DNA of 64,000 bases from Trypanosoma brucei (taxonomy: Eukaryota), in contig CP000068.1 in NCBI GenBank assembly GCA_000002445.1, positions 352,001 through 416,000 of the forward strand. The letters are read 5' to 3'. Made by a program: the position numbers and the translations under genes. The stretch's first letter is position 1. Every line of letters starts with the position of its first letter. Shown here piece by piece: positions 10,272-33,184 of the stretch. Below the pieces are notes generated by a model, which was not told where the DNA came from, did not search any database, and saw only the letters and a program-made list of their open reading frames with translations.

Positions 10272-11054
10272 ATGGGGAAGACAGTGCTTACCTGCCGTAA
10301 GGGCAACGGCTCTGTGTACCAGGTGCATGGCCACAAGCGGCTCGGACCCGCGAAGCTGCGCATTCTCGACTACGCCGAGCGTCACGGTTTCATGCGCGGT
10401 GTTGTGAAGGCCATCGAACACGAGCCTGGTCGCGGTGCTCCGCTGGCGCGCGTTGAGTTCCGCCACCCGTATAAATACCGCCGCGTGAAGGAATTGATGG
10501 TCGCTCCGGAAGGCATGTTCACCGGACAGTCGATGCTCTGTGGTGTTAAGGCACCGCTTGCTATTGGGAATGTCCTGCCACTCGGTCAAATCACGGAGGG
10601 TTGCATCGTTTGCAACGTGGAGGCGAAGGTTGGCGACCGCGGTACCCTCGCCCGTGCTTCTGGCGACTATTGCATTATTATTTCGCACAACACTGAAACG
10701 GGTCGCACCCGCCTCAAGCTTCCAAGCGGCCAGAAGAAAACGGTTCCCAGCAGCTGCCGTGCCATGATTGGCATCGTCGCCGGTGGTGGCCGTATTGAAA
10801 AGCCGGTCCTTAAAGCCGGTAATTCCTTCTACCGCTTCCGTGGCAAACGCAACTGCTGGCCCAAGGTACGTGGTGTGGCTCGTAACCCCGTGGAGCACCC
10901 TCACGGTGGTGGTAACCATCAACATATTGGCCACCCCTCCACCGTCTCGCGCCACGCCCCACCCGGACAGAAGGTTGGTTTAATTGCCGCCCGTCGCACG
11001 GGTCGGATTCGCGGTAGCAGAGCTGTCAGGGGCGCATGGCATCCTGAAGAGTAA
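10272..11054 (+). CDS. uL2: 60S ribosomal protein uL2 (L2 / L8 family), 260 aa
   Basis: Near-universal uL2 signature [35 protein letters not shown] plus the N-terminal [20 protein letters not shown] region. It has a clean ATG and an ORF of the expected size. Confidence 0.95.
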
Positions 11055-13413: not shown

Positions 13414-16400
13414 ATGCCGGGGTTGTTAAAGTGGAAGAAGCGTTGTAGTCCCGTCGCGATGCGCCCAAGTAGGGGTTTGGTACCGTCTCCACGGAAGTCG
13501 CCCTCAAAACAGCGTTCCAGTGCGCACAGCGCAGCCGCGGGCGAGGAATGTTATGAACTGCAGGCGGTTCCATCTGTCATTCCGGCACTCCAAGCGATTA
13601 GTGCCGTGCGCCGCGCGGGAGCTCTGATGGCTCGTGTAATGAGTCCAACAGCGGATCGAATAGAAGGAGAGTTGTGGTATATTGCAGGGGAATACGGGCC
13701 GGGAAAGGGAAATGCCGCTGCACCCCAGTGGGTGACGTGCGATAGGCATCGGTTGGTGGTTTGGAGTAGCTGGTGTGGACAGGGCCGTATAATAGACACC
13801 GTTTCTTTCGATCGTCTTAGACTTATTCTCAACTTCTCTCATGCGCATACGCATAAGGTGTGCCAACGGCAGGCACCCGTCACAAGATATTCGGCGGCGA
13901 AGAACTTCTCCCTCCCCTCAGCTCGCGGGAGCAGAAGCCCTCCACAAACGTTTAGAAGAGGAACAACCACCTTTGCTAGGAAAAAAAAGCTCGGTGCGAT
14001 CGCAACAGGCAGGATTCGCGCATATGGTGGTACGTCGATGCCCCGTTACTATTACTTTGGCGTGGAGTTTACTTGCCTTTACCGCACAGAGGACGGTAGA
14101 AATCACCGGCGGCGGCGGGTCATGATGTTTGCAACGGATGTTCAGCATGACCTCATCACGTGGCTGCAGTTCTTATCAGATGTAGAAGTTAAAAAGGTTC
14201 GAGAAACCGTATGTGGAGGGGGTTCTCAGGGAACGAAGCGCGCGCGGAAGTCTAAGCAGTGTATGAGTCCGAACGTTAGTTACTTTCTCAATGAAAGTGA
14301 TTGCACTGCCGTAGACACTAGTAATGAGACGTCATTGGCTTCGTCATCTCCACTAGACATTGACACCACGATGGATCCCGCGGTAGCGCCGTCGAGGGCG
14401 TCCGATCGTGAGGTTGAGGCGCCCGGCCAATCAATATTTTCCCTTTTTTCTAGCACGGTAACCGATCCCACAAAGAGTCCATCACCACAGCCCATAGAAA
14501 AGGAGCAATCCGAGGAAGTCATAAGTAACGGGTCGCTTCTCGACATATCCCTTCACAACAACGAGCCACCACAACTGGCAGCTAGGCCTCACACACCAAA
14601 AAAAAAGAAAGCATCACTAAAAAAAGTAAAGAAGAAAACATACGAGGAGCTTAGGAATGAGCGAATGATGAGGGAAAATACCGAGCTCAAAAGAAAGAAT
14701 GAAGAGTTAAAAAAGGAAATTAAAGTGGCAACAGATAAAATAACAGAACTGCAACGAAATCTTCAAGCATCAGAGAGAACGAATAGATACGCGGAAGAAG
14801 AATGCGAGCACCTCAGAGACAGTTTGCTTAAAGTAGAAAAACAAAAAGCCAACCTAGCAAAAAAACTAAGTGAATCAACAGGAAACGAATTTCAACTACA
14901 AAAGCAGGCTGTCGAACTTCACGCAACGTTAGAAGAACAGGCTGCTTGCATCCGTGCGCTGAGTGAGCAAATTACTGCCGCCGACGCCTACTTGCGAGAC
15001 GCGGAGGGCGAGTGTGGTTCACTGGCTGGGTTGCTTGGTCTCTCCCCAGCAGAAGATGGTGGCGACCTCGGGACTGGTAGTGCTGGTTTGTCATTGTCGA
15101 ATGGCGCGCTACGCATAGCGGAGAGACTGCGGTTGGCGTGCAGTGCGGTACACGACCTGGAGCAAGAACTGAAGGCCAGTGGGGAGCGTGAGCGTGCCTC
15201 TATAGAGGAATGTGATCGATTACGTAATGAACTACAGAAGCTGGAGTCGCAGCGTTCTGATCTGGAGGAGAGTCTGAATGCAGCCGAGGCGTTGGAGTGT
15301 GCGTTACGGCGCCAGCTACACGAGTCCCTAGAGGAGGTACGCAGTGCTGAGAATGCATTGAGTGCTGCGGAGCAGGCGTTGCGTTGCATACCGAGTGGGA
15401 TGGATCAGTACGCACGGGATGCCGATGGCGGTTCTGTTTCTAATGATGATAGCCGTGAACTGCCGACACTTGCGCTGCCAGCGCGCATTGAGGGCGTGAC
15501 CCGTCAGGCATGCGAATTCCGCGATGAGATGTACAAACGACACCAGGAGCTGTTGGACTTGGTTGCTAGAGGCGTGTGCAACGAGGATGCTCTTGCCCGT
15601 GTGCGTGAGCTGCGTTGTGCGAAGGAGGCTGTGGAGACGGAGCTGCAGGATACGCTAAGGGAAGCTGAGAAGCGGCTGTGTGTGGTGACCGCGTGTGAGG
15701 GTGTGCTTGGCGAGACTTTGTGCAGTGACGTTGTTGAGCAGCGCCAGGCAGAGCTGCTGTGCGCCCTGCGTGCAGACGTTGCAGAGGCCTGCGGTGTTTC
15801 GGGTAGTCATGTGATTGATGCTACGATAGCTGATGATGGTTCGAATGTGACTTTTCGTGTGGCTCACCCATACTGTGTCCCCGCAGCGGCTGTGCTGGCA
15901 AGGGTAGATTCATGCGCTTTCGACCGCGTACGGCGCGTCAACAAGTGGTCTTGTGGTGACTCTGAGGCGGTGTCCTTTGCCGAAGAAGATGAGGCGGAGC
16001 GTGAGTTTGTTGCAGTTGGGACCCCCGCTGGGGAGGCATTTTTGGCTCGGATAACCGAGTTGAGTGGGCGTTTCGCCTCTGTGAACGGTGAGCTGCGTGC
16101 AGCAGAGGACGCGCTTGCGGAGCGACCCGCTGTTGTGGTGTGTGGGTTGGAGCAGCGCGTTTCGGAGACTAATGCCACTGTGGAGGAACAGGCTGCTTGC
16201 ATCCGTGCGCTGAGTGAGCAAATTGCTGCCGCCGACGCCTACTTGCGAGACGCGGAGGGCGAGTGTGGTTCACTGGCTGGGTTGCTTGGTCTCTCCCCAG
16301 CAGAAGATGGTGGCGACCTCGGGACTGGTAGTGCTGGTTTGTCATTGTCGAATGGCGCGCTACGCATAGCGGAGAGACTGCGGTTGGCGTGCAGTGCGGT

Positions 16401-19400
16401 ACACGACCTGGAGCAAGAACTGAAGGCCAGTGGGGAGCGTGAGCGTGCCTCTATAGAGGAATGTGATCGATTACGTAATGAACTACAGAAGCTGGAGTCG
16501 CAGCGTTCTGATCTGGAGGAGAGTCTGAATGCAGCCGAGGCGTTGGAGTGTGCGTTACGGCGCCAGCTACACGAGTCCCTAGAGGAGGTACGCAGTGCTG
16601 AGAATGCATTGAGTGCTGCGGAGCAGGCGTTGCGTTGCATACCGAGTGGGATGGATCAGTACGCACGGGATGCCGATGGCGGTTCTGTTTCTAATGATGA
16701 TAGCCGTGAACTGCCGACACTTGCGCTGCCAGCGCGCATTGAGGGCGTGACCCGTCAGGCATGCGAATTCCGCGATGAGATGTACAAACGACACCAGGAG
16801 CTGTTGGACTTGGTTGCTAGAGGCGTGTGCAACGAGGATGCTCTTGCCCGTGTGCGTGAGCTGCGTTGTGCGAAGGAGGCTGTGGAGACGGAGCTGCAGG
16901 ATACGCTAAGGGAAGCTGAGAAGCGGCTGTGTGTGGTGACCGCGTGTGAGGGTGTGCTTGGCGAGACTTTGTGCAGTGACGTTGTTGAGCAGCGCCAGGC
17001 AGAGCTGCTGTGCGCCCTGCGTGCAGACGTTGCAGAGGCTTGCGGTGTTTCGGGTAGTCATGTGATTGATGCTACGATAGCTGATGATGGTTCGAATGTG
17101 ACTTTTCGTGTGGCTCACCCATACTGTGTCCCCGCAGCGGCTGTGCTGGCAAGGGTAGATTCATGCGCTTTCGACCGCGTACGGCGCGTCAACAAGTGGT
17201 CTTGTGGTGACTCTGAGGCGGTGTCCTTTGCCGAAGAAGATGAGGCGGAGCGTGAGTTTGTTGCAGTTGGGACCCCCGCTGGGGAGGCATTTTTGGCTCG
17301 GATAACCGAGTTGAGTGGGCGTTTCGCCTCTGTGAACGGTGAGCTGCGTGCAGCAGAGGACGCGCTTGCGGAGCGACCCGCTGTTGTGGTGTGTGGGTTG
17401 GAGCAGCGCGTTTCGGAGACTAATGCCACTGTGGAGGAACAGGCTGCTTGCATCCGTGCGCTGAGTGAGCAAATTGCTGCCGCCGACGCCTACTTGCGAG
17501 ATGCGGAGGGCGAGTGTGGTTCACTGGCTGGGTTGCTTGGTCTCTCCCCAGCAGAAGATGGTGGCGACCTCGGGACTGGTAGTGCTGGTTTGTCATTGTC
17601 GAATGGCGCGCTACGCATAGCGGAGAGACTGCGGTTGGCGTGCAGTGCGGTACACGACCTGGAGCAAGAACTGAAGGCCAGTGGGGAGCGTGAGCGTGCC
17701 TCTATAGAGGAATGTGATCGATTACGTAATGAACTACAGAAGCTGGAGTCGCAGCGTTCTGATCTGGAGGAGAGTCTGAATGCAGCCGAGGCGTTGGAGT
17801 GTGCGTTACGGCGCCAGCTACACGAGTCCCTAGAGGAGGTACGCAGTGCTGAGAATGCATTGAGTGCTGCGGAGCAGGCGTTGCGTTGCATACCGAGTGG
17901 GATGGATCAGTACGCACGGGATGCCGATGGCGGTTCTGTTTCTAATGATGATAGCCGTGAACTGCCGACACTTGCGCTGCCAGCGCGCATTGAGGGCGTG
18001 ACCCGTCAGGCATGCGAATTCCGCGATGAGATGTACAAACGACACCAGGAGCTGTTGGACTTGGTTGCTAGAGGCGTGTGCAACGAGGATGCTCTTGCCC
18101 GTGTGCGTGAGCTGCGTTGTGCGAAGGAGGCTGTGGAGACGGAGCTGCAGGATACGCTAAGGGAAGCTGAGAAGCGGCTGTGTGTGGTGACCGCGTGTGA
18201 GGGTGTGCTTGGCGAGACTTTGTGCAGTGACGTTGTTGAGCAGCGCCAGGCAGAGCTGCTGTGCGCCCTGCGTGCAGACGTTGCAGAGGCCTGCGGTGTT
18301 TCGGGTAGTCATGTGATTGATGCTACGATAGCTGATGATGGTTCGAATGTGACTTTTCGTGTGGCTCACCCATACTGTGTCCCCGCAGCGGCTGTGCTGG
18401 CAAGGGTAGATTCATGCGCTTTCGACCGCGTACGGCGCGTCAACAAGTGGTCTTGTGGTGACTCTGAGGCGGTGTCCTTTGCCGAAGAAGATGAGGCGGA
18501 GCGTGAGTTTGTTGCAGTTGGGACCCCCGCTGGGGAGGCATTTTTGGCTCGGATAACCGAGTTGAGTGGGCGTTTCGCCTCTGTGAACGGTGAGCTGCGT
18601 GCAGCAGAGGACGCGCTTGCGGAGCGACCCGCTGTTGTGGTGTGTGGGTTGGAGCAGCGCGTTTCGGAGACTAATGCCACTGTGGAGGAACAGGCTGCTT
18701 GCATCCGTGCGCTGAGTGAGCAAATTGCTGCCGCCGACGCCTACTTGCGAGATGCGGAGGGCGAGTGTGGTTCACTGGCTGGGTTGCTTGGTCTCTCCCC
18801 AGCAGAAGATGGTGGCGACCTCGGGACTGGTAGTGCTGGTTTGTCATTGTCGAATGGCGCGCTACGCATAGCGGAGAGACTGCGGTTGGCGTGCAGTGCG
18901 GTACACGACCTGGAGCAAGAACTGAAGGCCAGTGGGGAGCGTGAGCGTGCCTCTATAGAGGAATGTGATCGATTACGTAATGAACTACAGAAGCTGGAGT
19001 CGCAGCGTTCTGATCTGGAGGAGAGTCTGAATGCAGCCGAGGCGTTGGAGTGTGCGTTACGGCGCCAGCTACACGAGTCCCTAGAGGAGGTACGCAGTGC
19101 TGAGAATGCATTGAGTGCTGCGGAGCAGGCGTTGCGTTGCATACCGAGTGGGATGGATCAGTATGCACGGGATGCCGATGGCGGTTCTGTTTCTAATGAT
19201 GATAGCCGTGAACTGCCGACACTTGCGCTGCCAGCGCGCATTGAGGGCGTGACCCGTCAGGCATGCGAATTCCGCGATGAGATGTACAAACGACACCAGG
19301 AGCTGTTGGACTTGGTTGCTAGAGGCGTGTGCAACGAGGATGCTCTTGCCCGTGTGCGTGAGCTGCGTTGTGCGAAGGAGGCTGTGGAGACGGAGCTGCA

Positions 19401-22400
19401 GGATACGCTAAGGGAAGCTGAGAAGCGGCTGTGTGTGGTGACCGCGTGTGAGGGTGTGCTTGGCGAGACTTTGTGCAGTGACGTTGTTGAGCAGCGCCAG
19501 GCAGAGCTGCTGTGCGCCCTGCGTGCAGACGTTGCAGAGGCCTGCGGTGTTTCGGGTAGTCATGTGATTGATGCTACGATAGCTGATGATGGTTCGAATG
19601 TGACTTTTCGTGTGGCTCACCCATACTGTGTCCCCGCAGCGGCTGTGCTGGCAAGGGTAGATTCATGCGCTTTCGACCGCGTACGGCGCGTCAACAAGTG
19701 GTCTTGTGGTGACTCTGAGGCGGTGTCCTTTGCCGAAGAAGATGAGGCGGAGCGTGAGTTTGTTGCAGTTGGGACCCCCGCTGGGGAGGCATTTTTGGCT
19801 CGGATAACCGAGTTGAGTGGGCGTTTCGCCTCTGTGAACGGTGAGCTGCGTGCAGCAGAGGACGCGCTTGCGGAGCGACCCGCTGTTGTGGTGTGTGGGT
19901 TGGAGCAGCGCGTTTCGGAGACTAATGCCACTGTGGAGGAACAGGCTGCTTGCATCCGTGCGCTGAGTGAGCAAATTGCTGCCGCCGACGCCTACTTGCG
20001 AGATGCGGAGGGCGAGTGTGGTTCACTGGCTGGGTTGCTTGGTCTCTCCCCAGCAGAAGATGGTGGCGACCTCGGGACTGGTAGTGCTGGTTTGTCATTG
20101 TCGAATGGCGCGCTACGCATAGCGGAGAGACTGCGGTTGGCGTGCAGTGCGGTACACGACCTGGAGCAAGAACTGAAGGCCAGTGGGGAGCGTGAGCGTG
20201 CCTCTATAGAGGAATGTGATCGATTACGTAATGAACTACAGAAGCTGGAGTCGCAGCGTTCTGATCTGGAGGAGAGTCTGAATGCAGCCGAGGCGTTGGA
20301 GTGTGCGTTACGGCGCCAGCTACACGAGTCCCTAGAGGAGGTACGCAGTGCTGAGAATGCATTGAGTGCTGCGGAGCAGGCGTTGCGTTGCATACCGAGT
20401 GGGATGGATCAGTATGCACGGGATGCCGATGGCGGTTCTGTTTCTAATGATGATAGCCGTGAACTGCCGACACTTGCGCTGCCAGCGCGCATTGAGGGCG
20501 TGACCCGTCAGGCATGCGAATTCCGCGATGAGATGTACAAACGACACCAGGAGCTGTTGGACTTGGTTGCTAGAGGCGTGTGCAACGAGGATGCTCTTGC
20601 CCGTGTGCGTGAGCTGCGTTGTGCGAAGGAGGCTGTGGAGACGGAGCTGCAGGATACGCTAAGGGAAGCTGAGAAGCGGCTGTGTGTGGTGACCGCGTGT
20701 GAGGGTGTGCTTGGCGAGACTTTGTGCAGTGACGTTGTTGAGCAGCGCCAGGCAGAGCTGCTGTGCGCCCTGCGTGCAGACGTTGCAGAGGCCTGCGGTG
20801 TTTCGGGTAGTCATGTGATTGATGCTACGATAGCTGATGATGGTTCGAATGTGACTTTTCGTGTGGCTCACCCATACTGTGTCCCCGCAGCGGCTGTGCT
20901 GGCAAGGGTAGATTCATGCGCTTTCGACCGCGTACGGCGCGTCAACAAGTGGTCTTGTGGTGACTCTGAGGCGGTGTCCTTTGCCGAAGAAGATGAGGCG
21001 GAGCGTGAGTTTGTTGCAGTTGGGACCCCCGCTGGGGAGGCATTTTTGGCTCGGATAACCGAGTTGAGTGGGCGTTTCGCCTCTGTGAACGGTGAGCTGC
21101 GTGCAGCAGAGGACGCGCTTGCGGAGCGACCCGCTGTTGTGGTGTGTGGGTTGGAGCAGCGCGTTTCGGAGACTAATGCCACTGTGGAGGAACAGGCTGC
21201 TTGCATCCGTGCGCTGAGTGAGCAAATTGCTGCCGCCGACGCCTACTTGCGAGATGCGGAGGGCGAGTGTGGTTCACTGGCTGGGTTGCTTGGTCTCTCC
21301 CCAGCAGAAGATGGTGGCGACCTCGGGACTGGTAGTGCTGGTTTGTCATTGTCGAATGGCGCGCTACGCATAGCGGAGAGACTGCGGTTGGCGTGCAGTG
21401 CGGTACACGACCTGGAGCAAGAACTGAAGGCCAGTGGGGAGCGTGAGCGTGCCTCTATAGAGGAATGTGATCGATTACGTAATGAACTACAGAAGCTGGA
21501 GTCGCAGCGTTCTGATCTGGAGGAGAGTCTGAATGCAGCCGAGGCGTTGGAGTGTGCGTTACGGCGCCAGCTACACGAGTCCCTAGAGGAGGTACGCAGT
21601 GCTGAGAATGCATTGAGTGCTGCGGAGCAGGCGTTGCGTTGCATACCGAGTGGGATGGATCAGTACGCACGGGATGCCGATGGCGGTTCTGTTTCTAATG
21701 ATGATAGCCGTGAACTGCCGACACTTGCGCTGCCAGCGCGCATTGAGGGCGTGACCCGTCAGGCATGCGAATTCCGCGATGAGATGTACAAACGACACCA
21801 GGAGCTGTTGGACTTGGTTGCTAGAGGCGTGTGCAACGAGGATGCTCTTGCCCGTGTGCGTGAGCTGCGTTGTGCGAAGGAGGCTGTGGAGACGGAGCTG
21901 CAGGATACGCTAAGGGAAGCTGAGAAGCGGCTGTGTGTGGTGACCGCGTGTGAGGGTGTGCTTGGCGAGACTTTGTGCAGTGACGTTGTTGAGCAGCGCC
22001 AGGCAGAGCTGCTGTGCGCCCTGCGTGCAGACGTTGCAGAGGCCTGCGGTGTTTCGGGTAGTCATGTGATTGATGCTACGATAGCTGATGATGGTTCGAA
22101 TGTGACTTTTCGTGTGGCTCACCCATACTGTGTCCCCGCAGCGGCTGTGCTGGCAAGGGTAGATTCATGCGCTTTCGACCGCGTACGGCGCGTCAACAAG
22201 TGGTCTTGTGGTGACTCTGAGGCGGTGTCCTTTGCCGAAGAAGATGAGGCGGAGCGTGAGTTTGTTGCAGTTGGGACCCCCGCTGGGGAGGCATTTTTGG
22301 CTCGGATAACCGAGTTGAGTGGGCGTTTCGCCTCTGTGAACGGTGAGCTGCGTGCAGCAGAGGACGCGCTTGCGGAGCGACCCGCTGTTGTGGTGTGTGG

Positions 22401-25400
22401 GTTGGAGCAGCGCGTTTCGGAGACTAATGCCACTGTGGAGGAACAGGCTGCTTGCATCCGTGCGCTGAGTGAGCAAATTGCTGCCGCCGACGCCTACTTG
22501 CGAGACGCGGAGGGCGAGTGTGGTTCACTGGCTGGGTTGCTTGGTCTCTCCCCAGCAGAAGATGGTGGCGACCTCGGGACTGGTAGTGCTGGTTTGTCAT
22601 TGTCGAATGGCGCGCTACGCATAGCGGAGAGACTGCGGTTGGCGTGCAGTGCGGTACACGACCTGGAGCAAGAACTGAAGGCCAGTGGGGAGCGTGAGCG
22701 TGCCTCTATAGAGGAATGTGATCGATTACGTAATGAACTACAGAAGCTGGAGTCGCAGCGTTCTGATCTGGAGGAGAGTCTGAATGCAGCCGAGGCGTTG
22801 GAGTGTGCGTTACGGCGCCAGCTACACGAGTCCCTAGAGGAGGTACGCAGTGCTGAGAATGCATTGAGTGCTGCGGAGCAGGCGTTGCGTTGCATACCGA
22901 GTGGGATGGATCAGTATGCACGGGATGCCGATGGCGGTTCTGTTTCTAATGATGATAGCCGTGAACTGCCGACACTTGCGCTGCCAGCGCGCATTGAGGG
23001 CGTGACCCGTCAGGCATGCGAATTCCGCGATGAGATGTACAAACGACACCAGGAGCTGTTGGACTTGGTTGCTAGAGGCGTGTGCAACGAGGATGCTCTT
23101 GCCCGTGTGCGTGAGCTGCGTTGTGCGAAGGAGGCTGTGGAGACGGAGCTGCAGGATACGCTAAGGGAAGCTGAGAAGCGGCTGTGTGTGGTGACCGCGT
23201 GTGAGGGTGTGCTTGGCGAGACTTTGTGCAGTGACGTTGTTGAGCAGCGCCAGGCAGAGCTGCTGTGCGCCCTGCGTGCAGACGTTGCAGAGGCTTGCGG
23301 TGTTTCGGGTAGTCATGTGATTGATGCTACGATAGCTGATGATGGTTCGAATGTGACTTTTCGTGTGGCTCACCCATACTGTGTCCCCGCAGCGGCTGTG
23401 CTGGCAAGGGTAGATTCATGCGCTTTCGACCGCGTACGGCGCGTCAACAAGTGGTCTTGTGGTGACTCTGAGGCGGTGTCCTTTGCCGAAGAAGATGAGG
23501 CGGAGCGTGAGTTTGTTGCAGTTGGGACCCCCGCTGGGGAGGCATTTTTGGCTCGGATAACCGAGTTGAGTGGGCGTTTCGCCTCTGTGAACGGTGAGCT
23601 GCGTGCAGCAGAGGACGCGCTTGCGGAGCGACCCGCTGTTGTGGTGTGTGGGTTGGAGCAGCGCGTTTCGGAGACTAATGCCACTGTGGAGGAACAGGCT
23701 GCTTGCATCCGTGCGCTGAGTGAGCAAATTGCTGCCGCCGACGCCTACTTGCGAGATGCGGAGGGCGAGTGTGGTTCACTGGCTGGGTTGCTTGGTCTCT
23801 CCCCAGCAGAAGATGGTGGCGACCTCGGGACTGGTAGTGGTGGTTTGTCATTGTCGAATGGCGCGCTACGCATAGCGGAGAGACTGCGGTTGGCGTGCAG
23901 TGCGGTACACGACCTGGAGCAAGAACTGAAGGCCAGTGGGGAGCGTGAGCGTGCCTCTATAGAGGAATGTGATCGATTACGTAATGAACTACAGAAGCTG
24001 GAGTCGCAGCGTTCTGATCTGGAGGAGAGTCTGAATGCAGCCGAGGCGTTGGAGTGTGCGTTACGGCGCCAGCTACACGAGTCCCTAGAGGAGGTACGCA
24101 GTGCTGAGAATGCATTGAGTGCTGCGGAGCAGGCGTTGCGTTGCATACCGAGTGGGATGGATCAGTACGCACGGGATGCCGATGGCGGTTCTGTTTCTAA
24201 TGATGATAGCCGTGAACTGCCGACACTTGCGCTGCCAGCGCGCATTGAGGGCGTGACCCGTCAGGCATGCGAATTCCGCGATGAGATGTACAAACGACAC
24301 CAGGAGCTGTTGGACTTGGTTGCTAGAGGCGTGTGCAACGAGGATGCTCTTGCCCGTGTGCGTGAGCTGCGTTGTGCGAAGGAGGCTGTGGAGACGGAGC
24401 TGCAGGATACGCTAAGGGAAGCTGAGAAGCGGCTGTGTGTGGTGACCGCGTGTGAGGGTGTGCTTGGCGAGACTTTGTGCAGTGACGTTGTTGAGCAGCG
24501 CCAGGCAGAGCTGCTGTGCGCCCTGCGTGCAGACGTTGCAGAGGCCTGCGGTGTTTCGGGTAGTCATGTGATTGATGCTACGATAGCTGATGATGGTTCG
24601 AATGTGACTTTTCGTGTGGCTCACCCATACTGTGTCCCCGCAGCGGCTGTGCTGGCAAGGGTAGATTCATGCGCTTTCGACCGCGTACGGCGCGTCAACA
24701 AGTGGTCTTGTGGTGACTCTGAGGCGGTGTCCTTTGCCGAAGAAGATGAGGCGGAGCGTGAGTTTGTTGCAGTTGGGACCCCCGCTGGGGAGGCATTTTT
24801 GGCTCGGATAACCGAGTTGAGTGGGCGTTTCGCCTCTGTGAACGGTGAGCTGCGTGCAGCAGAGGACGCGCTTGCGGAGCGACCCGCTGTTGTGGTGTGT
24901 GGGTTGGAGCAGCGCGTTTCGGAGACTAATGCCACTGTGGAGGAACAGGCTGCTTGCATCCGTGCGCTGAGTGAGCAAATTGCTGCCGCCGACGCCTACT
25001 TGCGAGATGCGGAGGGCGAGTGTGGTTCACTGGCTGGGTTGCTTGGTCTCTCCCCAGCAGAAGATGGTGGCGACCTCGGGACTGGTAGTGCTGGTTTGTC
25101 ATTGTCGAATGGCGCGCTACGCATAGCGGAGAGACTGCGGTTGGCGTGCAGTGCGGTACACGACCTGGAGCAAGAACTGAAGGCCAGTGGGGAGCGTGAG
25201 CGTGCCTCTATAGAGGAATGTGATCGATTACGTAATGAACTACAGAAGCTGGAGTCGCAGCGTTCTGATCTGGAGGAGAGTCTGAATGCAGCCGAGGCGT
25301 TGGAGTGTGCGTTACGGCGCCAGCTACACGAGTCCCTAGAGGAGGTACGCAGTGCTGAGAATGCATTGAGTGCTGCGGAGCAGGCGTTGCGTTGCATACC

Positions 25401-28400
25401 GAGTGGGATGGATCAGTACGCACGGGATGCCGATGGCGGTTCTGTTTCTAATGATGATAGCCGTGAACTGCCGACACTTGCGCTGCCAGCGCGCATTGAG
25501 GGCGTGACCCGTCAGGCATGCGAATTCCGCGATGAGATGTACAAACGACACCAGGAGCTGTTGGACTTGGTTGCTAGAGGCGTGTGCAACGAGGATGCTC
25601 TTGCCCGTGTGCGTGAGCTGCGTTGTGCGAAGGAGGCTGTGGAGACGGAGCTGCAGGATACGCTAAGGGAAGCTGAGAAGCGGCTGTGTGTGGTGACCGC
25701 GTGTGAGGGTGTGCTTGGCGAGACTTTGTGCAGTGACGTTGTTGAGCAGCGCCAGGCAGAGCTGCTGTGCGCCCTGCGTGCAGACGTTGCAGAGGCCTGC
25801 GGTGTTTCGGGTAGTCATGTGATTGATGCTACGATAGCTGATGATGGTTCGAATGTGACTTTTCGTGTGGCTCACCCATACTGTGTCCCCGCAGCGGCTG
25901 TGCTGGCAAGGGTAGATTCATGCGCTTTCGACCGCGTACGGCGCGTCAACAAGTGGTCTTGTGGTGACTCTGAGGCGGTGTCCTTTGCCGAAGAAGATGA
26001 GGCGGAGCGTGAGTTTGTTGCAGTTGGGACCCCCGCTGGGGAGGCATTTTTGGCTCGGATAACCGAGTTGAGTGGGCGTTTCGCCTCTGTGAACGGTGAG
26101 CTGCGTGCAGCAGAGGACGCGCTTGCGGAGCGACCCGCTGTTGTGGTGTGTGGGTTGGAGCAGCGCGTTTCGGAGACTAATGCCACTGTGGAGGAACAGG
26201 CTGCTTGCATCCGTGCGCTGAGTGAGCAAATTGCTGCCGCCGACGCCTACTTGCGAGATGCGGAGGGCGAGTGTGGTTCACTGGCTGGGTTGCTTGGTCT
26301 CTCCCCAGCAGAAGATGGTGGCGACCTCGGGACTGGTAGTGCTGGTTTGTCATTGTCGAATGGCGCGCTACGCATAGCGGAGAGACTGCGGTTGGCGTGC
26401 AGTGCGGTACACGACCTGGAGCAAGAACTGAAGGCCAGTGGGGAGCGTGAGCGTGCCTCTATAGAGGAATGTGATCGATTACGTAATGAACTACAGAAGC
26501 TGGAGTCGCAGCGTTCTGATCTGGAGGAGAGTCTGAATGCAGCCGAGGCGTTGGAGTGTGCGTTACGGCGCCAGCTACACGAGTCCCTAGAGGAGGTACG
26601 CAGTGCTGAGAATGCATTGAGTGCTGCGGAGCAGGCGTTGCGTTGCATACCGAGTGGGATGGATCAGTACGCACGGGATGCCGATGGCGGTTCTGTTTCT
26701 AATGATGATAGCCGTGAACTGCCGACACTTGCGCTGCCAGCGCGCATTGAGGGCGTGACCCGTCAGGCATGCGAATTCCGCGGTGAGATGTACAAACGAC
26801 ACCAGGAGCTGTTGGACTTGGTTGCTAGAGGCGTGTGCAACGAGGATGCTCTTGCCCGTGTGCGTGAGCTGCGTTGTGCGAAGGAGGCTGTGGAGACGGA
26901 GCTGCAGGATACGCTAAGGGAAGCTGAGAAGCGGCTGTGTGTGGTGACCGCGTGTGAGGGTGTGCTTGGCGAGACTTTGTGCAGTGACGTTGTTGAGCAG
27001 CGCCAGGCAGAGCTGCTGTGCGCCCTGCGTGCAGACGTTGCAGAGGCCTGCGGTGTTTCGGGTAGTCATGTGATTGATGCTACGATAGCTGATGATGGTT
27101 CGAATGTGACTTTTCGTGTGGCTCACCCATACTGTGTCCCCGCAGCGGCTGTGCTGGCAAGGGTAGATTCATGCGCTTTCGACCGCGTACGGCGCGTCAA
27201 CAAGTGGTCTTGTGGTGACTCTGAGGCGGTGTCCTTTGCCGAAGAAGATGAGGCGGAGCGTGAGTTTGTTGCAGTTGGGACCCCCGCTGGGGAGGCATTT
27301 TTGGCTCGGATAACCGAGTTGAGTGGGCGTTTCGCCTCTGTGAACGGTGAGCTGCGTGCAGCAGAGGACGCGCTTGCGGAGCGACCCGCTGTTGTGGTGT
27401 GTGGGTTGGAGCAGCGCGTTTCGGAGACTAATGCCACTGTGGAGGAACAGGCTGCTTGCATCCGTGCGCTGAGTGAGCAAATTGCTGCCGCCGACGCCTA
27501 CTTGCGAGACGCGGAGGGCGAGTGTGGTTCACTGGCTGGGTTGCTTGGTCTCTCCCCAGCAGAAGATGGTGGCGACCTCGGGACTGGTAGTGCTGGTTTG
27601 TCATTGTCGAATGGCGCGCTACGCATAGCGGAGAGACTGCGGTTGGCGTGCAGTGCGGTACACGACCTGGAGCAAGAACTGAAGGCCAGTGGGGAGCGTG
27701 AGCGTGCCTCTATAGAGGAATGTGATCGATTACGTAATGAACTACAGAAGCTGGAGTCGCAGCGTTCTGATCTGGAGGAGAGTCTGAATGCAGCCGAGAT
27801 ACCGGAACAGATTTTGAGGGGTCATGTTGATTCTTTTTTGTGTCGTGTTTTTACGTCGTTGAAGTGTTTGCGTGATGTTGTTGCTGGTTTTGCTGTGTTT
27901 ATGTGTTCTGATGTTGATGTTGATGGGAGCCCGTTTCTTTCTTTTGGTCAGGAGGGAACATTGGAGAAGAATATTGATTTGTCGCTGTATCGTTTAGAAT
28001 TACTTGTTCCAACTATTGATGTTTTATGTCGTGGGCTTGTTGGGTTGTGTCGTTTTTATGAGGCTGATCGTTTGTCACTGATGAATGGATTGACTGGTCT
28101 TGGGGTAGAGCCGGGTGGTCTGGTATTGAATTCGGTTATTCCTTGCGCTGATGCTCGACGTTCTTTGAGTGGCACTCTTGTTGATATTGTTTCTGCTGCT
28201 GGCGATATATCCGTTGTAGGTGATTTCGGAGGTAATGATAACTCTGTTGCAGAAGGTGGAACTAAATCGTTGTTGCAGGCGGTCGGGGTTTGGCAGACTT
28301 CCGTTGAGGAGTTTTCTGCTGAGGAGCAGTGTTCTTATTCAAAAGTTGTTGCGGGTATTGTTGGAGGTTTTCGAGATGAGGGGATAGCTGCCCGTCGCGC

Positions 28401-31400
28401 CCTGGTTAATGTGCGTAAGGCGCTTGAAGGTAAGGTGCCCTGTAGGGATGATGTTATCGATGGTAATGTTGTTGCCTCTCAAGGAAGTGATTTGGAGACC
28501 AGTGAAGGAAGGGAGGTTGTACGCCTGATTGCAGAGCAGAGGAAGTCGGTTTTATTTGCTTTGACCTCTTTGTTGTCATCCGTGTCGGCCGACGGAGTTG
28601 AAAGGGCTATGAGATTAAGTAAGAATGTTCCCTTCAGTGATTTAGTGTTGTTGTTGCGCCACGAGTGCGTAAACGTTTCCAAAGCGTTTATGTCACTTAA
28701 TGCAATTGTCCAGGAGGGTAGCAACATTGCAATTGTTACCTCTGGGGAAAGTGGTGAGAGTAGCCAGCCGGGGTCGTCAGTGACCGGGTTTACTGAGGTG
28801 AAAGGTGATAACGTGGTGCCATCGAAGACGTCTGCCGCCATTGAAAACGTCTCGTCACCAGACCTCGCCCCTTCACAGTCAGCCGGGGGAGAGGGCGGAA
28901 AACTTCACACGGGAAAGGGACCCGCTTCCGCATCTGATTCTGCTATGGATTCTACCGTTGCTTCCGCCGGGATATGTGCGGTTGATGGGATGCCGTCGCA
29001 CTCAACCTCACTGTCTCGGTGCCCTAGTGTCGCTGCTGAAGACACGGATGAGAGGGCCGACTTGCTGTTTTCCCTTAGAGACTTCGTTGAGGCCGAAGAA
29101 GCTTCTGGGAAGCCGCTCGCAATCGTTCAACAGGTGCGTGAGCACATTCATGCCCGTACCGAGGAGCTTCAGCAGCTTCGTACTGCTGCAGTAAAGAGTG
29201 TGGAGACGCTCAGTGGTGATCCACTTCCAGCCGGTGCTAAGCCTTATGATGTAGCCGGCGCACTACTAGCAGCTGTGAAGACAACGAGCGACTCTATTGG
29301 TGGCGTCCACGCATTGCTGTCCGGTGTCACTTTGGAGGAAGCTCCAGCCCAAGCGACACGTTCACTTAAACCGAAGGCGAAACCTCAACCGGTAGGTCGT
29401 TGCAACTCCTCGATAGTGCTTTCGCTAAAGCGTGCCGTCTTGCTGAATCCTCGCCTTGCGCAGGCCGGTGGGAGGAGGTCCCGTGAAAGCGTGCAAATGG
29501 GGTTAAGCACGGCTTCTCGCTCTGCTGGAAACCGCAGTTCGGTGTCGGGAAATTCAAGTTCAGGAGGGGGAGGCGCATCCGTCGGCCCGCAGAAGCTACA
29601 TGAACTCATCAAAGCTATCGAGAGCAAGCTAAAGATTGTCCAACATACAAGGGACACATGCAGTGTTTGTCTGTATCTTTTGGGCGACAAAGAGGGAGGG
29701 AACGTCCCTGCTGAGGAACTGCCGACTCGCCTCTTGCTGCAAGCACAGGACTTATTCTCCGGACTGACGCAAATACAGAACTTGGATTTAGGTGACGAAG
29801 ACGATGAGCCCAACGCCGATGACAAGTCAAGCGAGGGGAATTCTTTGGTTGGCAAGCCGTCTTGGATAACCTCAAGGCTGCTGAAAGTTGCTAAGGTCTT
29901 TAGGTCGCTTCAGTATATCAACGAGTCTATGAAACAAAGGGAGGCTGTCGCTGAAAAGCAGAGAAGCTTCTTGCTACTGGATGTAAATGAATTACGGAAC
30001 ACCCATGCGGAAGAAAAGCGGCGGCTTCAAGATATGCTGGAGGGTGCGAAGGTGCAGCTGCGGGAGCGCGACCTTAATATCAAAGACATGCAGCAGCAGA
30101 ATGCTATTTTGCGGGCGGATTACGACAAAGCCTGCGCGGAAAGTAAGCATATGACTCTAGAGTTGAATGATATGCGCGGAACGCTGGATGATCTTCAGCA
30201 TTGGTTGGAGGGCGTAGAAATGGCCGCTGGGGTTGTGCGCAGGTCATCAGCTGCTGTCTGGGGACAGATTTGTAGCGTTGAGCAGAAGTTGACAGAAAGA
30301 TTATCCGCATTTATTCCTACAGATCACGGGCGCTATAGGCGAACGAGTAAAACTAACGTAGAAGAGAAAATGGAGGTGTCGCTAACCGCAAGAGAAACCG
30401 GGGGGGAAGTGGAGTTGGTACCTGTTTCGGGTGGAAAGCTAGTGGTACAGCTGGTTGAGGATAGCGCTAGCTGCTTGAGACAATGTGAGGAGTCTCTTCA
30501 ACTGTTGGAGCGTCCTCTTATTCTCGTGCCTGCCTTGAGTGAATGGATAAAGCAACAATACTTGTCTCTAAAAGACAATGTATCACACGCTGAGGAGGAG
30601 GTTCGCTCAATCCTGCGCAGTTGCTACCGGAGTGCGGCCGATCTGCTATATGATAAACTCCGTGCCGTGCAGCGTCACAGGGAGGCGGAGCTTGAACTTG
30701 ATGCGTCCCATGCACGCTGGCAAGGGCGGTTGCGGGATATTGAGGCAGCTCACAAGGAACACACTGCTGTACTGAACCGCCGGCTGGCAACAATGTGGGA
30801 CTTGACTACTCAACAAGATGTGCTGCGCGCCGAGACGGCCAGATGGCAGGCCTGTGCGGAGGCGGCGGCAGAGGAAACGGAGCGCTTGCGAGTGTTGCTT
30901 CGTGCCGCTGAGTCCAGAGAGGTGCCCCAGCCTACTGAGGTTGTTAAAATAATAGAAGTTGAGCCACCTAGAGCACCAAAGCCATCTACAAGGGAGGTTT
31001 CTATTATGACAGATTTACTCATTGTTGAGGAGCCTGCTGTACCCGATTACGATGAGGCAACTGATGTGTTGAAGATACGGGCAGAGCTTTCAGATGCTTT
31101 GGAATATGCCAAGCATCAGGCGGATGACGCTGCGCGCTGTCGCTCTTTGATGCAGGAGCAACTCCACTTGTTGGATGGTGGTCAGGGGGCGGTTGTGGAT
31201 CCGTCACTTTCGCTGGGAAAGTTGATTGAAACACATAAGAAGCGCCTCCTGATGCACGTGGATGAGCGTAGGAAACTTCTTGAAGCTTGGCAGACTGCGC
31301 AGCACAACATTTCCCGGCTAAAACAGGAAATCGATGAAAGGGAGCGACAACGCAAGAAGGAAACACGAGAACTGGAGACACAAATTAAGGAACTACGGGT

Positions 31401-32245: not shown

Positions 32246-33184
32246 ATGTGCGGAAAGGACAGCGGTGTCGAGGAGCGGAAGCTTCAGCATCCGCACCGTG
32301 TACAGCAGTTCACCGCAGGGGTTGCGCTTTCTGATATTGCAACCGCAGGTGTAGTAGGTTTCACCGCCGCCATTCCCATTTCCATTGTGGACTACAGTAT
32401 CATGGCTCGCGTTGCCGGCGTGACGAACAGCAGTGGACGTGTGTTATGGGAGGGCATGAGAACACTGTTCCTGCGTCCACACCGCTTTTTCATTCCGTGT
32501 GCAGAGAACAAATGCGCTCCAGTGTTTGGTGCGTGTTTTACGGTATACAGCCTTACATTCTGCACTTCTAACCTTACGAAGAGCTATTGTGAAGCAAAAG
32601 GTTACACACCTGAGCGGTCCAATTTAATCACGGGTTTAGCCGGCGGCGCCACCAACACACTCATGACCATGTGGAAAGATAGCCTTATCCTTCGCATCCT
32701 GCCCCCAGTAGGGGGTGCATCTGCGGGTTCAGGGCGGCCTAAACCAGTGCCGTGGTTGACACGTGGCCTTTTTGTTGGCCGTGATGTCTTCACATGTTTA
32801 GCCGCTTTCACCATCACACCCATGGTGGCAACGTGGTTGACAAATTACTTCTGGAATGCCAAAGAAAATGCCAAACTCACTCAGCCGCGGCCGCTGGAGG
32901 GGAAGACGCATATTCCGCTTGCGACCGTCGACCTCGCGCAGCTCATAACGCCCACAGCACTGCAGACAGTTACAACATTTATGCACATTTTTGCCATTCG
33001 TTACCGCCAGACGTATCCCAACTTCACATTTGGTGATCTTTCAACGAGCTTGCGGGAAACGTACCTCTCTTCGTTGATTCTGCGCATTGTGCGTATTCTT
33101 CCGGCGTTTGGTGTTGGCGGCATTCTCAACCGCGAACTTCGTTCTGATCTTCAGGACCGTGTGGAAGGTCCGGCATACCACTAA
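32246..33184 (+). CDS. Hypothetical multi-pass membrane protein (312 aa)
   Basis: Clean ATG and co-directional with its neighbours. It has several hydrophobic segments (VVGFTAAIPISIV, APVFGACFTVYSLTF, VFTCLAAFTITPMVATWL, SLILRIVRILPAFGVGGIL). No family signature is recognisable by eye. Confidence 0.4.
   Translation: MCGKDSGVEERKLQHPHRVQQFTAGVALSDIATAGVVGFTAAIPISIVDYSIMARVAGVTNSSGRVLWEGMRTLFLRPHRFFIPCAENKCAPVFGACFTVYSLTFCTSNLTKSYCEAKGYTPERSNLITGLAGGATNTLMTMWKDSLILRILPPVGGASAGSGRPKPVPWLTRGLFVGRDVFTCLAAFTITPMVATWLTNYFWNAKENAKLTQPRPLEGKTHIPLATVDLAQLITPTALQTVTTFMHIFAIRYRQTYPNFTFGDLSTSLRETYLSSLILRIVRILPAFGVGGILNRELRSDLQDRVEGPAYH

What the first reader, a model, noticed from the sequence alone, without database searches (positions are those of the whole stretch)
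14925..27798. Repeat units are homogenised to about 99.9% including synonymous sites, with a mosaic pattern of a few variants
Across about 10 copies only a handful of positions vary.

Synonymous variants: gaC/gaT in …tacttgcgagaYgcggag (C in copies starting about 14990, 16241, 22496 and 27500; T in the others); gcC/gcT in gcagaggcYtgcggt; and taC/taT in cagtaYgcacgg.

Non-synonymous variants: the first copy has ITAAD versus IAAAD elsewhere; one copy has GSGGLS versus GSAGLS (about 23838); one has EFRGEMYK versus EFRDEMYK (about 26783).

Identity at silent sites cannot be maintained by purifying selection on the protein. It implies recent expansion or ongoing concerted evolution (gene conversion or unequal sister-chromatid exchange). 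The variants are shared among non-adjacent copies, giving a patchwork that is the expected footprint of conversion. It also predicts strain-to-strain length polymorphism of the protein.
Basis: partly seen in the sequence, partly recalled or inferred. Interest (0 to 1): 0.55.

Follow-up and report, generated by a model that had tools for sequence, protein, structure and literature searches.

The report
Homogenised giant repeats in trypanosome protein
A 656-kDa uncharacterised Trypanosoma brucei protein is 71% made of ten near-identical 417-amino-acid repeats that are kept alike within each genome while diverging between species, a clean but ordinary example of concerted evolution of a tandem array.

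Summary
Window 14923-27798 holds 10.29 head-to-tail copies of a 1251-bp unit, in frame inside one 6062-aa ORF. That ORF is T. b. brucei TREU927 chr5, XP_844786.1/Q57W57, inferred to be Tb927.5.1120. Only six internal sites vary, and mean pairwise identity is 99.85%.

Comparison with other assemblies turns "recent expansion or concerted evolution" into a fairly firm call for concerted evolution.
- The syntenic arrays of T. b. gambiense and T. b. equiperdum have the same boundaries but 2.29 and 6.29 copies.
- One non-synonymous difference is fixed in every unit of each array. At three further sites, the TREU927 minority state is the state fixed in the other two arrays.
- T. vivax has at least 12 units of 1248 bp with only two substitution sites, yet about 42% amino-acid identity to T. 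brucei.
- T. congolense and T. melophagium orthologues are likewise homogeneous internally.

Silent divergence within the array (0.42%) is three to four times lower than between subspecies in the unique parts of the same gene (1.4-1.7%).

The "patchwork" evidence is real but thin: a minimum of two exchange events, resting on two units. Unit order and copy number in Sanger assemblies may be unreliable. Concerted evolution of T. brucei tandem arrays is well documented, so this is a new example, not a new kind.

The parts
13414..31602 (+). Single ORF of 6062 aa (655.9 kDa, pI 4.8). Identical to T. b. brucei TREU927 XP_844786.1 / AAZ11227.1 / UniProt Q57W57, named 'hypothetical protein, conserved'. 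Inferred locus tag Tb927.5.1120.
   Evidence: ORF. Exact-sequence look-up. Mass. The gene lies between RPL2 (Tb927.5.1110) and choline/ethanolamine kinase 2 (Tb927.5.1140), both identified by Pfam.
13414..14922 (+). Unique N-terminal region (503 aa). It includes a block conserved in T. congolense, T. melophagium and T. cruzi orthologues, followed by a short coiled-coil stretch.
   Evidence: Alignment A1 shows 56% and 38% identity. The T. cruzi syntenic hit P0030 comes. No Pfam family scores above its cut-off.
14923..27798 (+). Tandem array of 10.29 copies of a 1251-bp (417-aa, 44.8 kDa) unit, making up 71% of the CDS. Six internal variable sites; mean pairwise identity 99.85%.
14923..14934 (+). 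Eroded 5' edge of the array. Five of the first 12 nt of unit 1 differ from all other units. The same five differences occur in unit 1 of the T. b. gambiense and T. b. equiperdum arrays.
16174..16539 (+). Segment 'A' of a representative unit (unit aa 1-122), predicted helical. This is the part present as the extra 0.29 copy at the array end. It is also the only part repeated in T. melophagium (106 aa x 23) and T. cruzi (86 aa x 2.1).
   Evidence: Secondary structure comes from the low-confidence model.
16540..17424 (+). Segment 'B' of a representative unit (unit aa 123-417). It consists of long helices plus a FAZ1_cons (PF23398) domain at unit aa 268-338.
   Evidence: Pfam E = 9.9e-12, 45.1 bits against a cut-off of 27.5. 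One search shows a helix / two strands / helix element at aa 267-328, at low pLDDT.
27433..27798 (+). Terminal partial unit (366 bp). The array ends at the same nucleotide in all three T. brucei-group assemblies.
27799..31602 (+). Unique C-terminal region (1267 aa plus stop) with no Pfam family. It is homologous to the C-termini of the T. melophagium and T. cruzi orthologues.
   Evidence: tblastn 27% identity over 1161 aa, E = 3e-54.

Best explanation
The array is an old, in-frame tandem repeat inside a giant structural protein. The protein is largely helical, probably coiled-coil (predicted at low confidence), and carries one FAZ1_cons domain per repeat unit. The units evolve in concert. Out-of-register homologous recombination between units (unequal sister-chromatid or inter-homologue exchange), together with gene conversion, repeatedly spreads or removes new variants and changes the copy number. 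As a result, units within one genome stay about 99.9% identical at all codon positions, while the array as a whole diverges between lineages.

Shown here:
- the array architecture;
- homogeneity including silent sites;
- a substitution fixed across every unit of each array, plus three near-fixed differences between strains;
- different copy numbers in different assemblies;
- species-specific homogeneous arrays in T. vivax, T. congolense and T. melophagium.

Inferred, not shown: the molecular mechanism (unequal crossover versus short-tract conversion, mitotic versus meiotic), its rate, and the cellular role of the protein.
For: 1. Homogeneity includes silent sites. Within-array pS is 0.42% and pN is 0.06%. 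Between TREU927 and T. b. gambiense or T. b. equiperdum, the unique 5.3 kb of the same gene shows pS 1.4-1.7% and pN 0.3%.

2. The syntenic arrays in T. b. gambiense DAL972 and T. b. equiperdum start and end at the same nucleotides but hold 2.29 and 6.29 copies.

3. Unit position 259 is GGG (Gly) in all 11 TREU927 units and AGG (Arg) in all 10 units of the other two arrays. At positions 78, 161 and 867 the TREU927 minority state is the state fixed in the other arrays. The variants are therefore real, and alleles have swept through whole arrays since the strains split.

4. T. vivax has at least 12 tandem 1248-bp units with only two substitution sites. The remaining differences are 1-bp indels. 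Identity to the T. brucei unit is 42-43% at the amino-acid level.

5. T. congolense has 426-aa units that differ by one residue and are 52% identical to T. brucei. Its array starts and ends within about 14 aa of the homologous T. brucei positions.

6. T. melophagium has 23 units of 106 aa with five variable residues in a mosaic pattern.

7. Four-gamete violations give a minimum of two exchange events within the 1251-bp unit.

8. The same pattern and mechanism are documented for T. brucei tandem gene arrays (PMC1855330; PMC2854126).
Against: - The mosaic signal rests on few sites. The violations inside TREU927 vanish if unit 7 is removed, and those involving the other arrays depend on unit 8. 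Recurrent C/T transitions could mimic some of them.
- Variant placement along the array shows no spatial structure (permutation P = 0.28-1.0; Mantel P = 0.19). That fits conversion, but it fits arbitrary unit ordering by an assembler equally well.
[quoted passage not shown] The window's own TREU927 record is also a Sanger-era sequence, by my own knowledge, and may share this limit.
- TREU927 is diploid, so units from two haplotypes could be interleaved in the reference.
- Synteny of the T. vivax and T. congolense arrays could not be shown, because the contigs are short or end inside the array.
- GC3 is only mildly raised in the array (0.564 against 0.485-0.498 in the unique parts). There is no strong signature of GC-biased conversion.
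Confidence: 0.8

Rival explanations
1. Purely recent, independent expansion. Each lineage inherited one unit (or one plus a fraction) and amplified it recently. The copies are alike simply because they are young, with no continuing exchange between established units.
For: Lack of variation is not in itself evidence of homogenisation, as PMC1855330 argues. Copy numbers differ between assemblies. The repeat period differs between clades: 86 aa in T. cruzi, 106 aa in T. melophagium and about 417-426 aa in salivarian species. New arrays have therefore been created at this site more than once.
Against: The three T. brucei-group arrays share both end-points to the nucleotide, and share the five edge differences in unit 1. 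T. congolense has the same 'n + about 0.25 unit' layout, with edges within about 14 aa. T. vivax has a unit of nearly the same length, 1248 bp. Independent amplification of the same roughly 1.25-kb segment in three species, and again in each T. brucei strain, is unparsimonious. Four-gamete violations need exchange between units. Contraction followed by re-expansion through unequal crossover is itself a form of concerted evolution, so this rival differs in degree rather than in kind.
Confidence: 0.1
2. Assembly artefact. The near-identity, the order of variant-bearing units and/or the copy number are products of assembling or polishing a repeat longer than a Sanger read, or of mixing two haplotypes. 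They would not be properties of the chromosome.
For: By my own knowledge the TREU927 and DAL972 sequences are Sanger-era assemblies, and the 1251-bp unit exceeds a Sanger read. [quoted passage not shown] A short-read T. equiperdum assembly (GCA_001457755.2) breaks at the repeat: its 7654-bp contig holds only the unique C-terminal part of the gene as a 1233-aa ORF. Variant positions along the array look random. The T. b. equiperdum and T. vivax assemblies carry 1-bp indels typical of long-read error.
Against: Four independently produced assemblies all give at least 99.5% identical units. Three of the six TREU927 variants match states fixed in other subspecies, which random error or polishing would not produce. 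The array-wide fixed difference at position 259 is a real biological signal. This rival plausibly affects unit order and exact copy number. My estimate is about 0.3-0.4 that these details are not exact in TREU927. It does not affect the homogeneity itself.
Confidence: 0.07
3. Selection at the nucleotide or RNA level keeps the units identical at synonymous sites. Candidates would be codon usage, mRNA structure, or a need for exact repeats.
For: None found. The array has a somewhat higher GC3 than the unique parts of the gene.
Against: Units diverge freely between species, with 42-52% amino-acid identity. Between strains, substitutions including non-synonymous ones become fixed in all units together. 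Selection on each site independently cannot produce that outcome.
Confidence: 0.02

Closest known systems
Concertedly evolving tandem gene arrays of Trypanosoma brucei (Jackson 2007, PMC1855330; Jackson et al. 2010, PMC2854126)
   Same: Head-to-tail units in one polycistronic unit. Within-genome near-identity includes silent sites. Sequence mosaics are present. Variants are subspecies-specific. Copy number differs between TREU927 and DAL972. Units group by genome rather than by position.
   Different: Here the units are not separate genes with their own UTRs. They are in-frame modules of one 18-kb ORF, so copy-number change alters protein length rather than gene dosage. I did not check whether this locus appears in those papers' array tables.
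Giant repetitive cytoskeletal proteins of trypanosomes (FAZ10, ClpGM6, FLAM3; PMC5358337)
   Same: Predicted mass above 450 kDa. Long runs of nearly identical tandem repeats, mostly predicted helical. Orthologues in other Trypanosoma species differ in repeat length and number. For FAZ10 the authors suspect that repeats are under-assembled in the reference genome.
   Different: The unit is much longer (417 aa against 35 aa in FAZ10) and contains a folded-domain signature (FAZ1_cons). Localisation and function of this protein are unknown, and I found no paper that mentions it.
FAZ1 and other PF23398 (FAZ1_cons) domain proteins
   Same: Each unit matches the Pfam FAZ1_cons model above the gathering score. 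UniRef names the protein 'Flagellar attachment zone protein 1 conserved domain-containing protein'.
   Different: The domain occurs ten times, once per unit, within a different overall architecture. The orthologues in T. melophagium and T. cruzi lack this segment in their repeats. No evidence on FAZ localisation is available.

Membership tests
Concertedly evolving tandem array (criteria as in Jackson 2007) | Head-to-tail units of constant period, in register | tested here: met
   Eleven starts spaced exactly 1251 bp apart. No indels among the units.
Concertedly evolving tandem array (criteria as in Jackson 2007) | Orthologous array at the same genomic position in other genomes | tested here: met
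   T. b. gambiense and T. b. equiperdum share the same flanking genes and the same array end-points. The T. cruzi gene is syntenic but has only a 2.1-copy, 258-bp repeat. Synteny of the T. vivax and T. congolense arrays could not be shown.
Concertedly evolving tandem array (criteria as in Jackson 2007) | Paralogous units within a genome are more alike than orthologous units between genomes | tested here: met
   Mean differences per unit are 1.9 within TREU927 and 2.1 within T. b. equiperdum, against 5.1 between these two arrays. One site is fixed array-wide and three are near-fixed. T. vivax units are at least 99.7% identical to each other but about 42% identical (amino acid) to T. brucei.
Concertedly evolving tandem array (criteria as in Jackson 2007) | Homogeneity extends to synonymous sites | tested here: met
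   pS is 0.42% within the array, against 1.4-1.7% between subspecies in the unique CDS of the same gene.
Concertedly evolving tandem array (criteria as in Jackson 2007) | Direct evidence of exchange between units (mosaics or incompatible sites) | tested here: inconclusive
   Four site pairs show all four allele combinations, giving a minimum of two exchange events. These depend on units 7 and 8 only, and on the assembled sequence being correct.
Concertedly evolving tandem array (criteria as in Jackson 2007) | Copy-number polymorphism between strains | tested here: inconclusive
   10.29, 6.29 and 2.29 copies in three assemblies. The authors of the T. b. gambiense genome paper say assembled repeat numbers can be arbitrary. 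No reads or blots were available.
PF23398 FAZ1_cons domain proteins | Match to the Pfam model above its gathering score | tested here: met
   45.1 bits against a cut-off of 27.5, E = 9.9e-12, unit aa 268-338 covering model positions 16-88 of 93.
Flagellum attachment zone (FAZ) proteins | Localisation to the FAZ, or a FAZ phenotype on depletion | not testable with these tools
   No paper in the library mentions Tb927.5.1120. Localisation requires tagging or imaging data.
PF03406 Phage tail fibre repeat | Genuine homology to phage tail-fibre repeats | tested here: inconclusive
   One 26-aa stretch (unit aa 2-27, model positions 17-42 of 42) scores 24.4 bits against a cut-off of 22. It falls in a predicted helix of a eukaryotic cytoskeletal-type protein, so I regard it as a chance match. 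This hit is probably the source of the 'Phage tail fiber repeat' names in the T. equiperdum annotations.
Giant repetitive cytoskeletal proteins of trypanosomes (FAZ10 / ClpGM6 / FLAM3 type) | Very high predicted mass with near-identical tandem repeats that are largely helical | tested here: met
   655.9 kDa, with 71% of the CDS in the array. The model is mostly long helices, at low confidence.
Giant repetitive cytoskeletal proteins of trypanosomes (FAZ10 / ClpGM6 / FLAM3 type) | Association with the detergent-resistant cytoskeleton | not testable with these tools
   No proteomic or imaging data are accessible here. The FAZ10 paper has no supplementary files held as text.

The most novel reading that the evidence does not exclude
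The repeat number of this uncharacterised 656-kDa protein may set a physical dimension, acting as a molecular ruler or spacer in the flagellum attachment zone or another cytoskeletal structure. Each 45-kDa unit would be a long helical rod plus one FAZ1_cons domain. Rapid gain and loss of units by unequal exchange would then give strains and species a heritable, quickly tunable morphological parameter. The change of period between clades (86, 106 and about 420 aa) would mark successive re-inventions of the ruler.
Probability: 0.08. Interest if true: 0.6.

Novelty: new member of a known kind. Interest (0 to 1): 0.3.

Why it matters
- **Annotation.** The length of this protein in any reference genome should be treated as provisional. 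The annotated product is 2711 aa in DAL972. In T. b. equiperdum it is split into three ORFs by probable 1-bp errors. In the short-read T. equiperdum assembly only the C-terminal part is assembled.
- **Evolutionary genetics.** The locus is a compact natural reporter of intragenic unequal exchange and conversion in T. brucei. A 1.25-kb unit with a handful of diagnostic SNPs can be fully phased with current long reads.
- **Cell biology.** It flags an unstudied giant protein carrying ten FAZ1_cons domains. The repeat architecture has been remodelled between stercorarian and salivarian trypanosomes.

None of this overturns current understanding. Concerted evolution of trypanosome tandem arrays and under-assembled giant repeat proteins are both established.

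Tried and rejected
- **TRF on the window.** It cannot see the array because its period limit is 500. I used lag self-comparison and the repeat finder instead.
- **FAZ10 as the gene's identity.** Rejected: FAZ10 is on chromosome 7 and has 35-aa repeats.
- **The search for homologous proteins.** The unit query found only one T. vivax fragment. The C-terminal query found nothing. The N-terminal profile found only a T. cruzi fragment. The word index seems swamped by coiled-coil matches. The exhaustive HMMER search was what found the T. congolense and T. melophagium orthologues. Their DNA could not be fetched, because only proteins returned by the search for homologous proteins may be looked up.
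- **Literature searches for Tb927.5.1120 and for HMMP supplementary lists.** Nothing found.
- **AlphaFold2 on an A-B-A segment without an alignment.** Mean pLDDT was 57.8, and below 50 across the FAZ1_cons region. I used only its secondary-structure outline and ran no fold search.
- **GC-biased conversion.** GC3 is only about 7 points higher in the array than in the unique parts, and similar to neighbouring genes. I do not claim it.
- **Spatial clustering of variants.** Not significant either way.
- **Ancestral state at positions 78, 161, 259 and 867.** Not resolved. The outgroup units are too diverged to align codon by codon with confidence. For codon 87 (position 259), T. congolense and T. 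vivax appear to have Glu (GAx) on my reading of the sequences. That weakly suggests the TREU927 first-position G is ancestral.

Full report
**1. What is in the window**

A self-comparison at a lag of 1251 bases is essentially perfect from 14935 to 26547. The repeat finder places eleven copies exactly 1251 bp apart, starting at 14923. The array runs from 14923 to 27798: ten full units plus a 366-bp partial unit, or 10.29 copies.

The array begins on a codon boundary of a single ORF, 13414-31602. That ORF encodes 6062 aa, 655.9 kDa, and the array makes up 71% of it. TRF missed the array only because its period limit is 500.

**2.

- Three synonymous C/T sites: unit position 78 (C in units 1, 2, 7 and 11), position 489 (T in units 4, 5 and 7) and position 867 (T in units 2 and 7).
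- Three singleton non-synonymous sites: position 52 (unit 1, Thr), position 161 (unit 8, Gly, window 23840) and position 602 (unit 10, Gly, window 26783).

Mean pairwise identity of the ten full units is 99.85%. Units 3, 6 and 9 are identical, as are units 4 and 5. This is an eroded array edge.

**3. Identity of the locus**

The neighbouring ORFs are threonyl-tRNA synthetase, a 655-aa TPR protein, ribosomal protein L2, a choline/ethanolamine kinase and a DEAH helicase, all on the + strand.

An exact-sequence look-up shows the 6062-aa product is XP_844786.1 / AAZ11227.1 / UniProt Q57W57. NCBI calls it 'hypothetical protein, conserved [Trypanosoma brucei brucei TREU927]', and it lies on a 1,608,198-bp record. 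Papers give RPL2 as Tb927.5.1110 and C/EK2 as Tb927.5.1140. By position the giant gene should therefore be Tb927.5.1120. This is an inference. No paper in the library mentions that identifier.

It is not FAZ10, which is on chromosome 7 and has 35-aa repeats.

**4. Anatomy of the unit**

Each 417-aa unit matches Pfam FAZ1_cons (PF23398) at residues 268-338, with E = 1e-11, above the gathering score. The unique N- and C-terminal regions match no family.

A single-sequence AlphaFold2 model of one and a quarter units is low-confidence (mean pLDDT 57.8). It shows long helices and a small helix / two-strand / helix element where the Pfam hit lies. I used it only as a secondary-structure sketch and ran no fold search.

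A weak Pfam hit to a phage tail-fibre repeat (unit aa 2-27, 24.4 bits against a cut-off of 22) is probably a chance match. It appears to have seeded the name 'Phage tail fiber repeat' in T. equiperdum annotations.

**5. Independent assemblies of the same locus**

Looking up the exact sequences of the two flanking small proteins fetched the syntenic region from three other assemblies:
- T. b. gambiense DAL972 (FN554968.1)
- T. b. equiperdum (GCA_003543875.1)
- a short-read T. equiperdum assembly (GCA_001457755.2)

In DAL972 and in GCA_003543875.1 the array starts and ends at the same nucleotides as in the window. DAL972 has 2.29 copies and GCA_003543875.1 has 6.29. The GCA_003543875.1 array carries two 1-bp deletions that split the ORF in three. 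I take these to be sequencing errors of the kind long reads make. The 7654-bp short-read contig holds only the unique C-terminal part of the gene, as a 1233-aa ORF, so it evidently breaks at the repeat.

It is not met. Every assembly shows units at least 99.4% identical to the TREU927 consensus and to each other.

**6. Signature of concerted evolution within the T. brucei group**

The joint variant table gives the following picture.
- Position 259 is G in all 11 TREU927 units and A in all 10 units of the other two arrays. This is GGG (Gly) against AGG (Arg). A substitution has been fixed across an entire array.
- At positions 78, 161 and 867, the state found in a minority of TREU927 units is the state fixed in the other two arrays. 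Those minorities are four, one and two units respectively.
- Two consequences follow. At least three of the six TREU927 variants are real, not sequencing errors. And alleles are caught part-way through spreading across the TREU927 array.

Silent-site divergence among TREU927 units is 0.42%. The unique N- and C-terminal coding parts of the same gene differ between TREU927 and the other two subspecies by 1.4-1.7% at silent sites. Paralogous units are therefore three to four times closer than orthologous unique sequence.

**7. Deeper comparison**

- *T. vivax.* A contig (L013) carries at least 12 tandem units of 1248 bp and runs off the contig end. The units differ by only two substitution sites; the rest are 1-bp indels, mostly in short runs of the same base. 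They are 42-43% identical to the T. brucei unit at the protein level.
- *Other orthologues.* The exhaustive HMMER search, followed by naming, found orthologues in T. congolense IL3000 and T. melophagium.
- *T. congolense.* Units are 426 aa and 52% identical to T. brucei. They differ from each other by one residue. The layout is again n units plus about a quarter unit, with edges within about 14 residues of the homologous T. brucei positions.
- *T. melophagium.* It repeats only the first quarter of the unit (segment A, 106 aa) 23 times, with five variable residues in a mosaic pattern.
- *T. cruzi.* In Dm28c the gene is syntenic (ThrRS, TPR protein, RPL2, then the gene). It has only a 258-bp repeat, 2.1 copies, with 97% matches, in the A-like region.

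The site has been repeat-prone for a long time. The roughly 1.25-kb period is shared by the three salivarian lineages, and each genome's units are homogeneous. One recent expansion cannot explain this. Repeated independent expansions of the same segment with the same edges would be unparsimonious. This is the argument Jackson (2007) made for T. brucei tandem gene arrays.

**8. How strong is the 'patchwork'?**

Inside TREU927, the site pairs (78, 489) and (489, 867) show all four allele combinations. Both cases are due to unit 7. Including the other arrays, the pairs (78, 161) and (161, 867) also show all four, because of unit 8. That unit carries the 'foreign' G at position 161, flanked within 181 bp on both sides by TREU927-type states. 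The Hudson-Kaplan minimum is two exchange events.

This is what conversion, or crossovers inside misaligned units, would leave. But it rests on two units and a handful of sites, and recurrent C/T transitions could account for part of it. Variant positions along the array are statistically indistinguishable from random (permutation P = 0.28-1.0; Mantel P = 0.19). That fits conversion, and it fits arbitrary unit ordering equally well.

The TREU927 record is, by my own knowledge, a Sanger-era assembly, and the unit is longer than a Sanger read. [quoted passage not shown] I therefore trust the homogeneity and the variant set. I put only moderate trust in the unit order and in the copy numbers 10.29 and 2.29. 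The 6.29 copies in the T. b. equiperdum assembly seem more credible to me, because I believe that assembly was built from long reads. I did not verify this here.

**9. Mechanism**

The best-supported explanation has three parts.
- Out-of-register homologous recombination between units, on sister chromatids or homologues, changes copy number and carries variants to fixation or loss.
- Some short-tract conversion also occurs.
- Edge units escape homogenisation, which explains the eroded first 12 nt.

The patterns are shown. The mechanism is inferred from established knowledge of tandem-array dynamics and from Jackson's work on T. brucei arrays. GC3 is only mildly raised in the array (0.564 against 0.485-0.498 in the unique parts), so I make no claim of GC-biased conversion.

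Variable sites occur at 3 per 309 synonymous sites and 3 per 930 non-synonymous sites. That indicates ordinary weak purifying selection on the protein.

**10. Comparison with what is known, and novelty**

Concerted evolution, mosaics and subspecies-specific variants in T. brucei tandem gene arrays are documented (PMC1855330, PMC2854126). Giant trypanosome cytoskeletal proteins with near-identical repeats, probably under-assembled in reference genomes, are also documented (PMC5358337).

What is particular here is that the units are in-frame 417-aa modules of a single ORF, each carrying a FAZ1_cons domain. Exchange therefore changes protein length rather than gene dosage. The repeat period has also been remodelled between clades. 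This makes the locus a new member of a known kind.

A specialist would not be surprised. The locus is a tidy, easily phased test case, and the protein itself is unstudied. Interest 0.3.

Noticed in passing
window 16177-16254 (unit aa 2-27, repeated in every unit): Pfam 'Phage tail fibre repeat' (PF03406) scores just above its cut-off: 24.4 bits against 22. T. equiperdum annotations name the orthologous fragments 'Phage tail fiber repeat'. This is most likely a chance match in a helical segment that has been propagated into annotation.
   Followed up: partly
L011/L002 (T. b. equiperdum GCA_003543875.1), unit 3 position 122 and unit 5 position 102 of the array: Two single-base deletions break the orthologous gene into three annotated ORFs of 1401, 739 and 2064 aa. 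These are probably sequencing errors rather than pseudogenisation, but this was not checked against reads.
   Followed up: partly
P0009 (T. melophagium, 4333 aa); L014 11611-12154 (T. cruzi Dm28c): The orthologues repeat only the first quarter (segment A) of the T. brucei unit: 106 aa x 23 in T. melophagium and 86 aa x 2.1 (97% matches) in T. cruzi. They have no FAZ1_cons segment in the repeat. The FAZ1_cons-bearing segment B seems to be a salivarian addition to the repeated module.
   Followed up: partly
L013 (T. vivax SOPI01000002.1, 31,292-bp contig): The 1248-bp array runs off one end of the contig and out of the fetched 15 kb. Further ORFs matching the unit lie on the same contig (locus tags ERJ75_000006300 to 6700). 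The array may therefore fill most of the contig, at more than 20 copies. One variant (unit position 17) is distributed in a block: AAAGGGGGAAAA.
   Followed up: partly
window 1-64000: All long ORFs with Pfam support lie on the + strand, and cumulative GC skew rises monotonically across the window. This is as expected for a single trypanosomatid polycistronic transcription unit.
   Followed up: no
window 10272-11054; L010 (T. b. gambiense FN554974.1): The ribosomal protein L2 gene next to the giant gene has a second copy encoding an identical protein on another chromosome record, in a different gene neighbourhood.
   Followed up: no
window 32246-33184: The 312-aa protein immediately downstream is named 'Mitochondrial carrier protein' in UniRef. 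It gave no Pfam match at E <= 0.001 in my scan.
   Followed up: no
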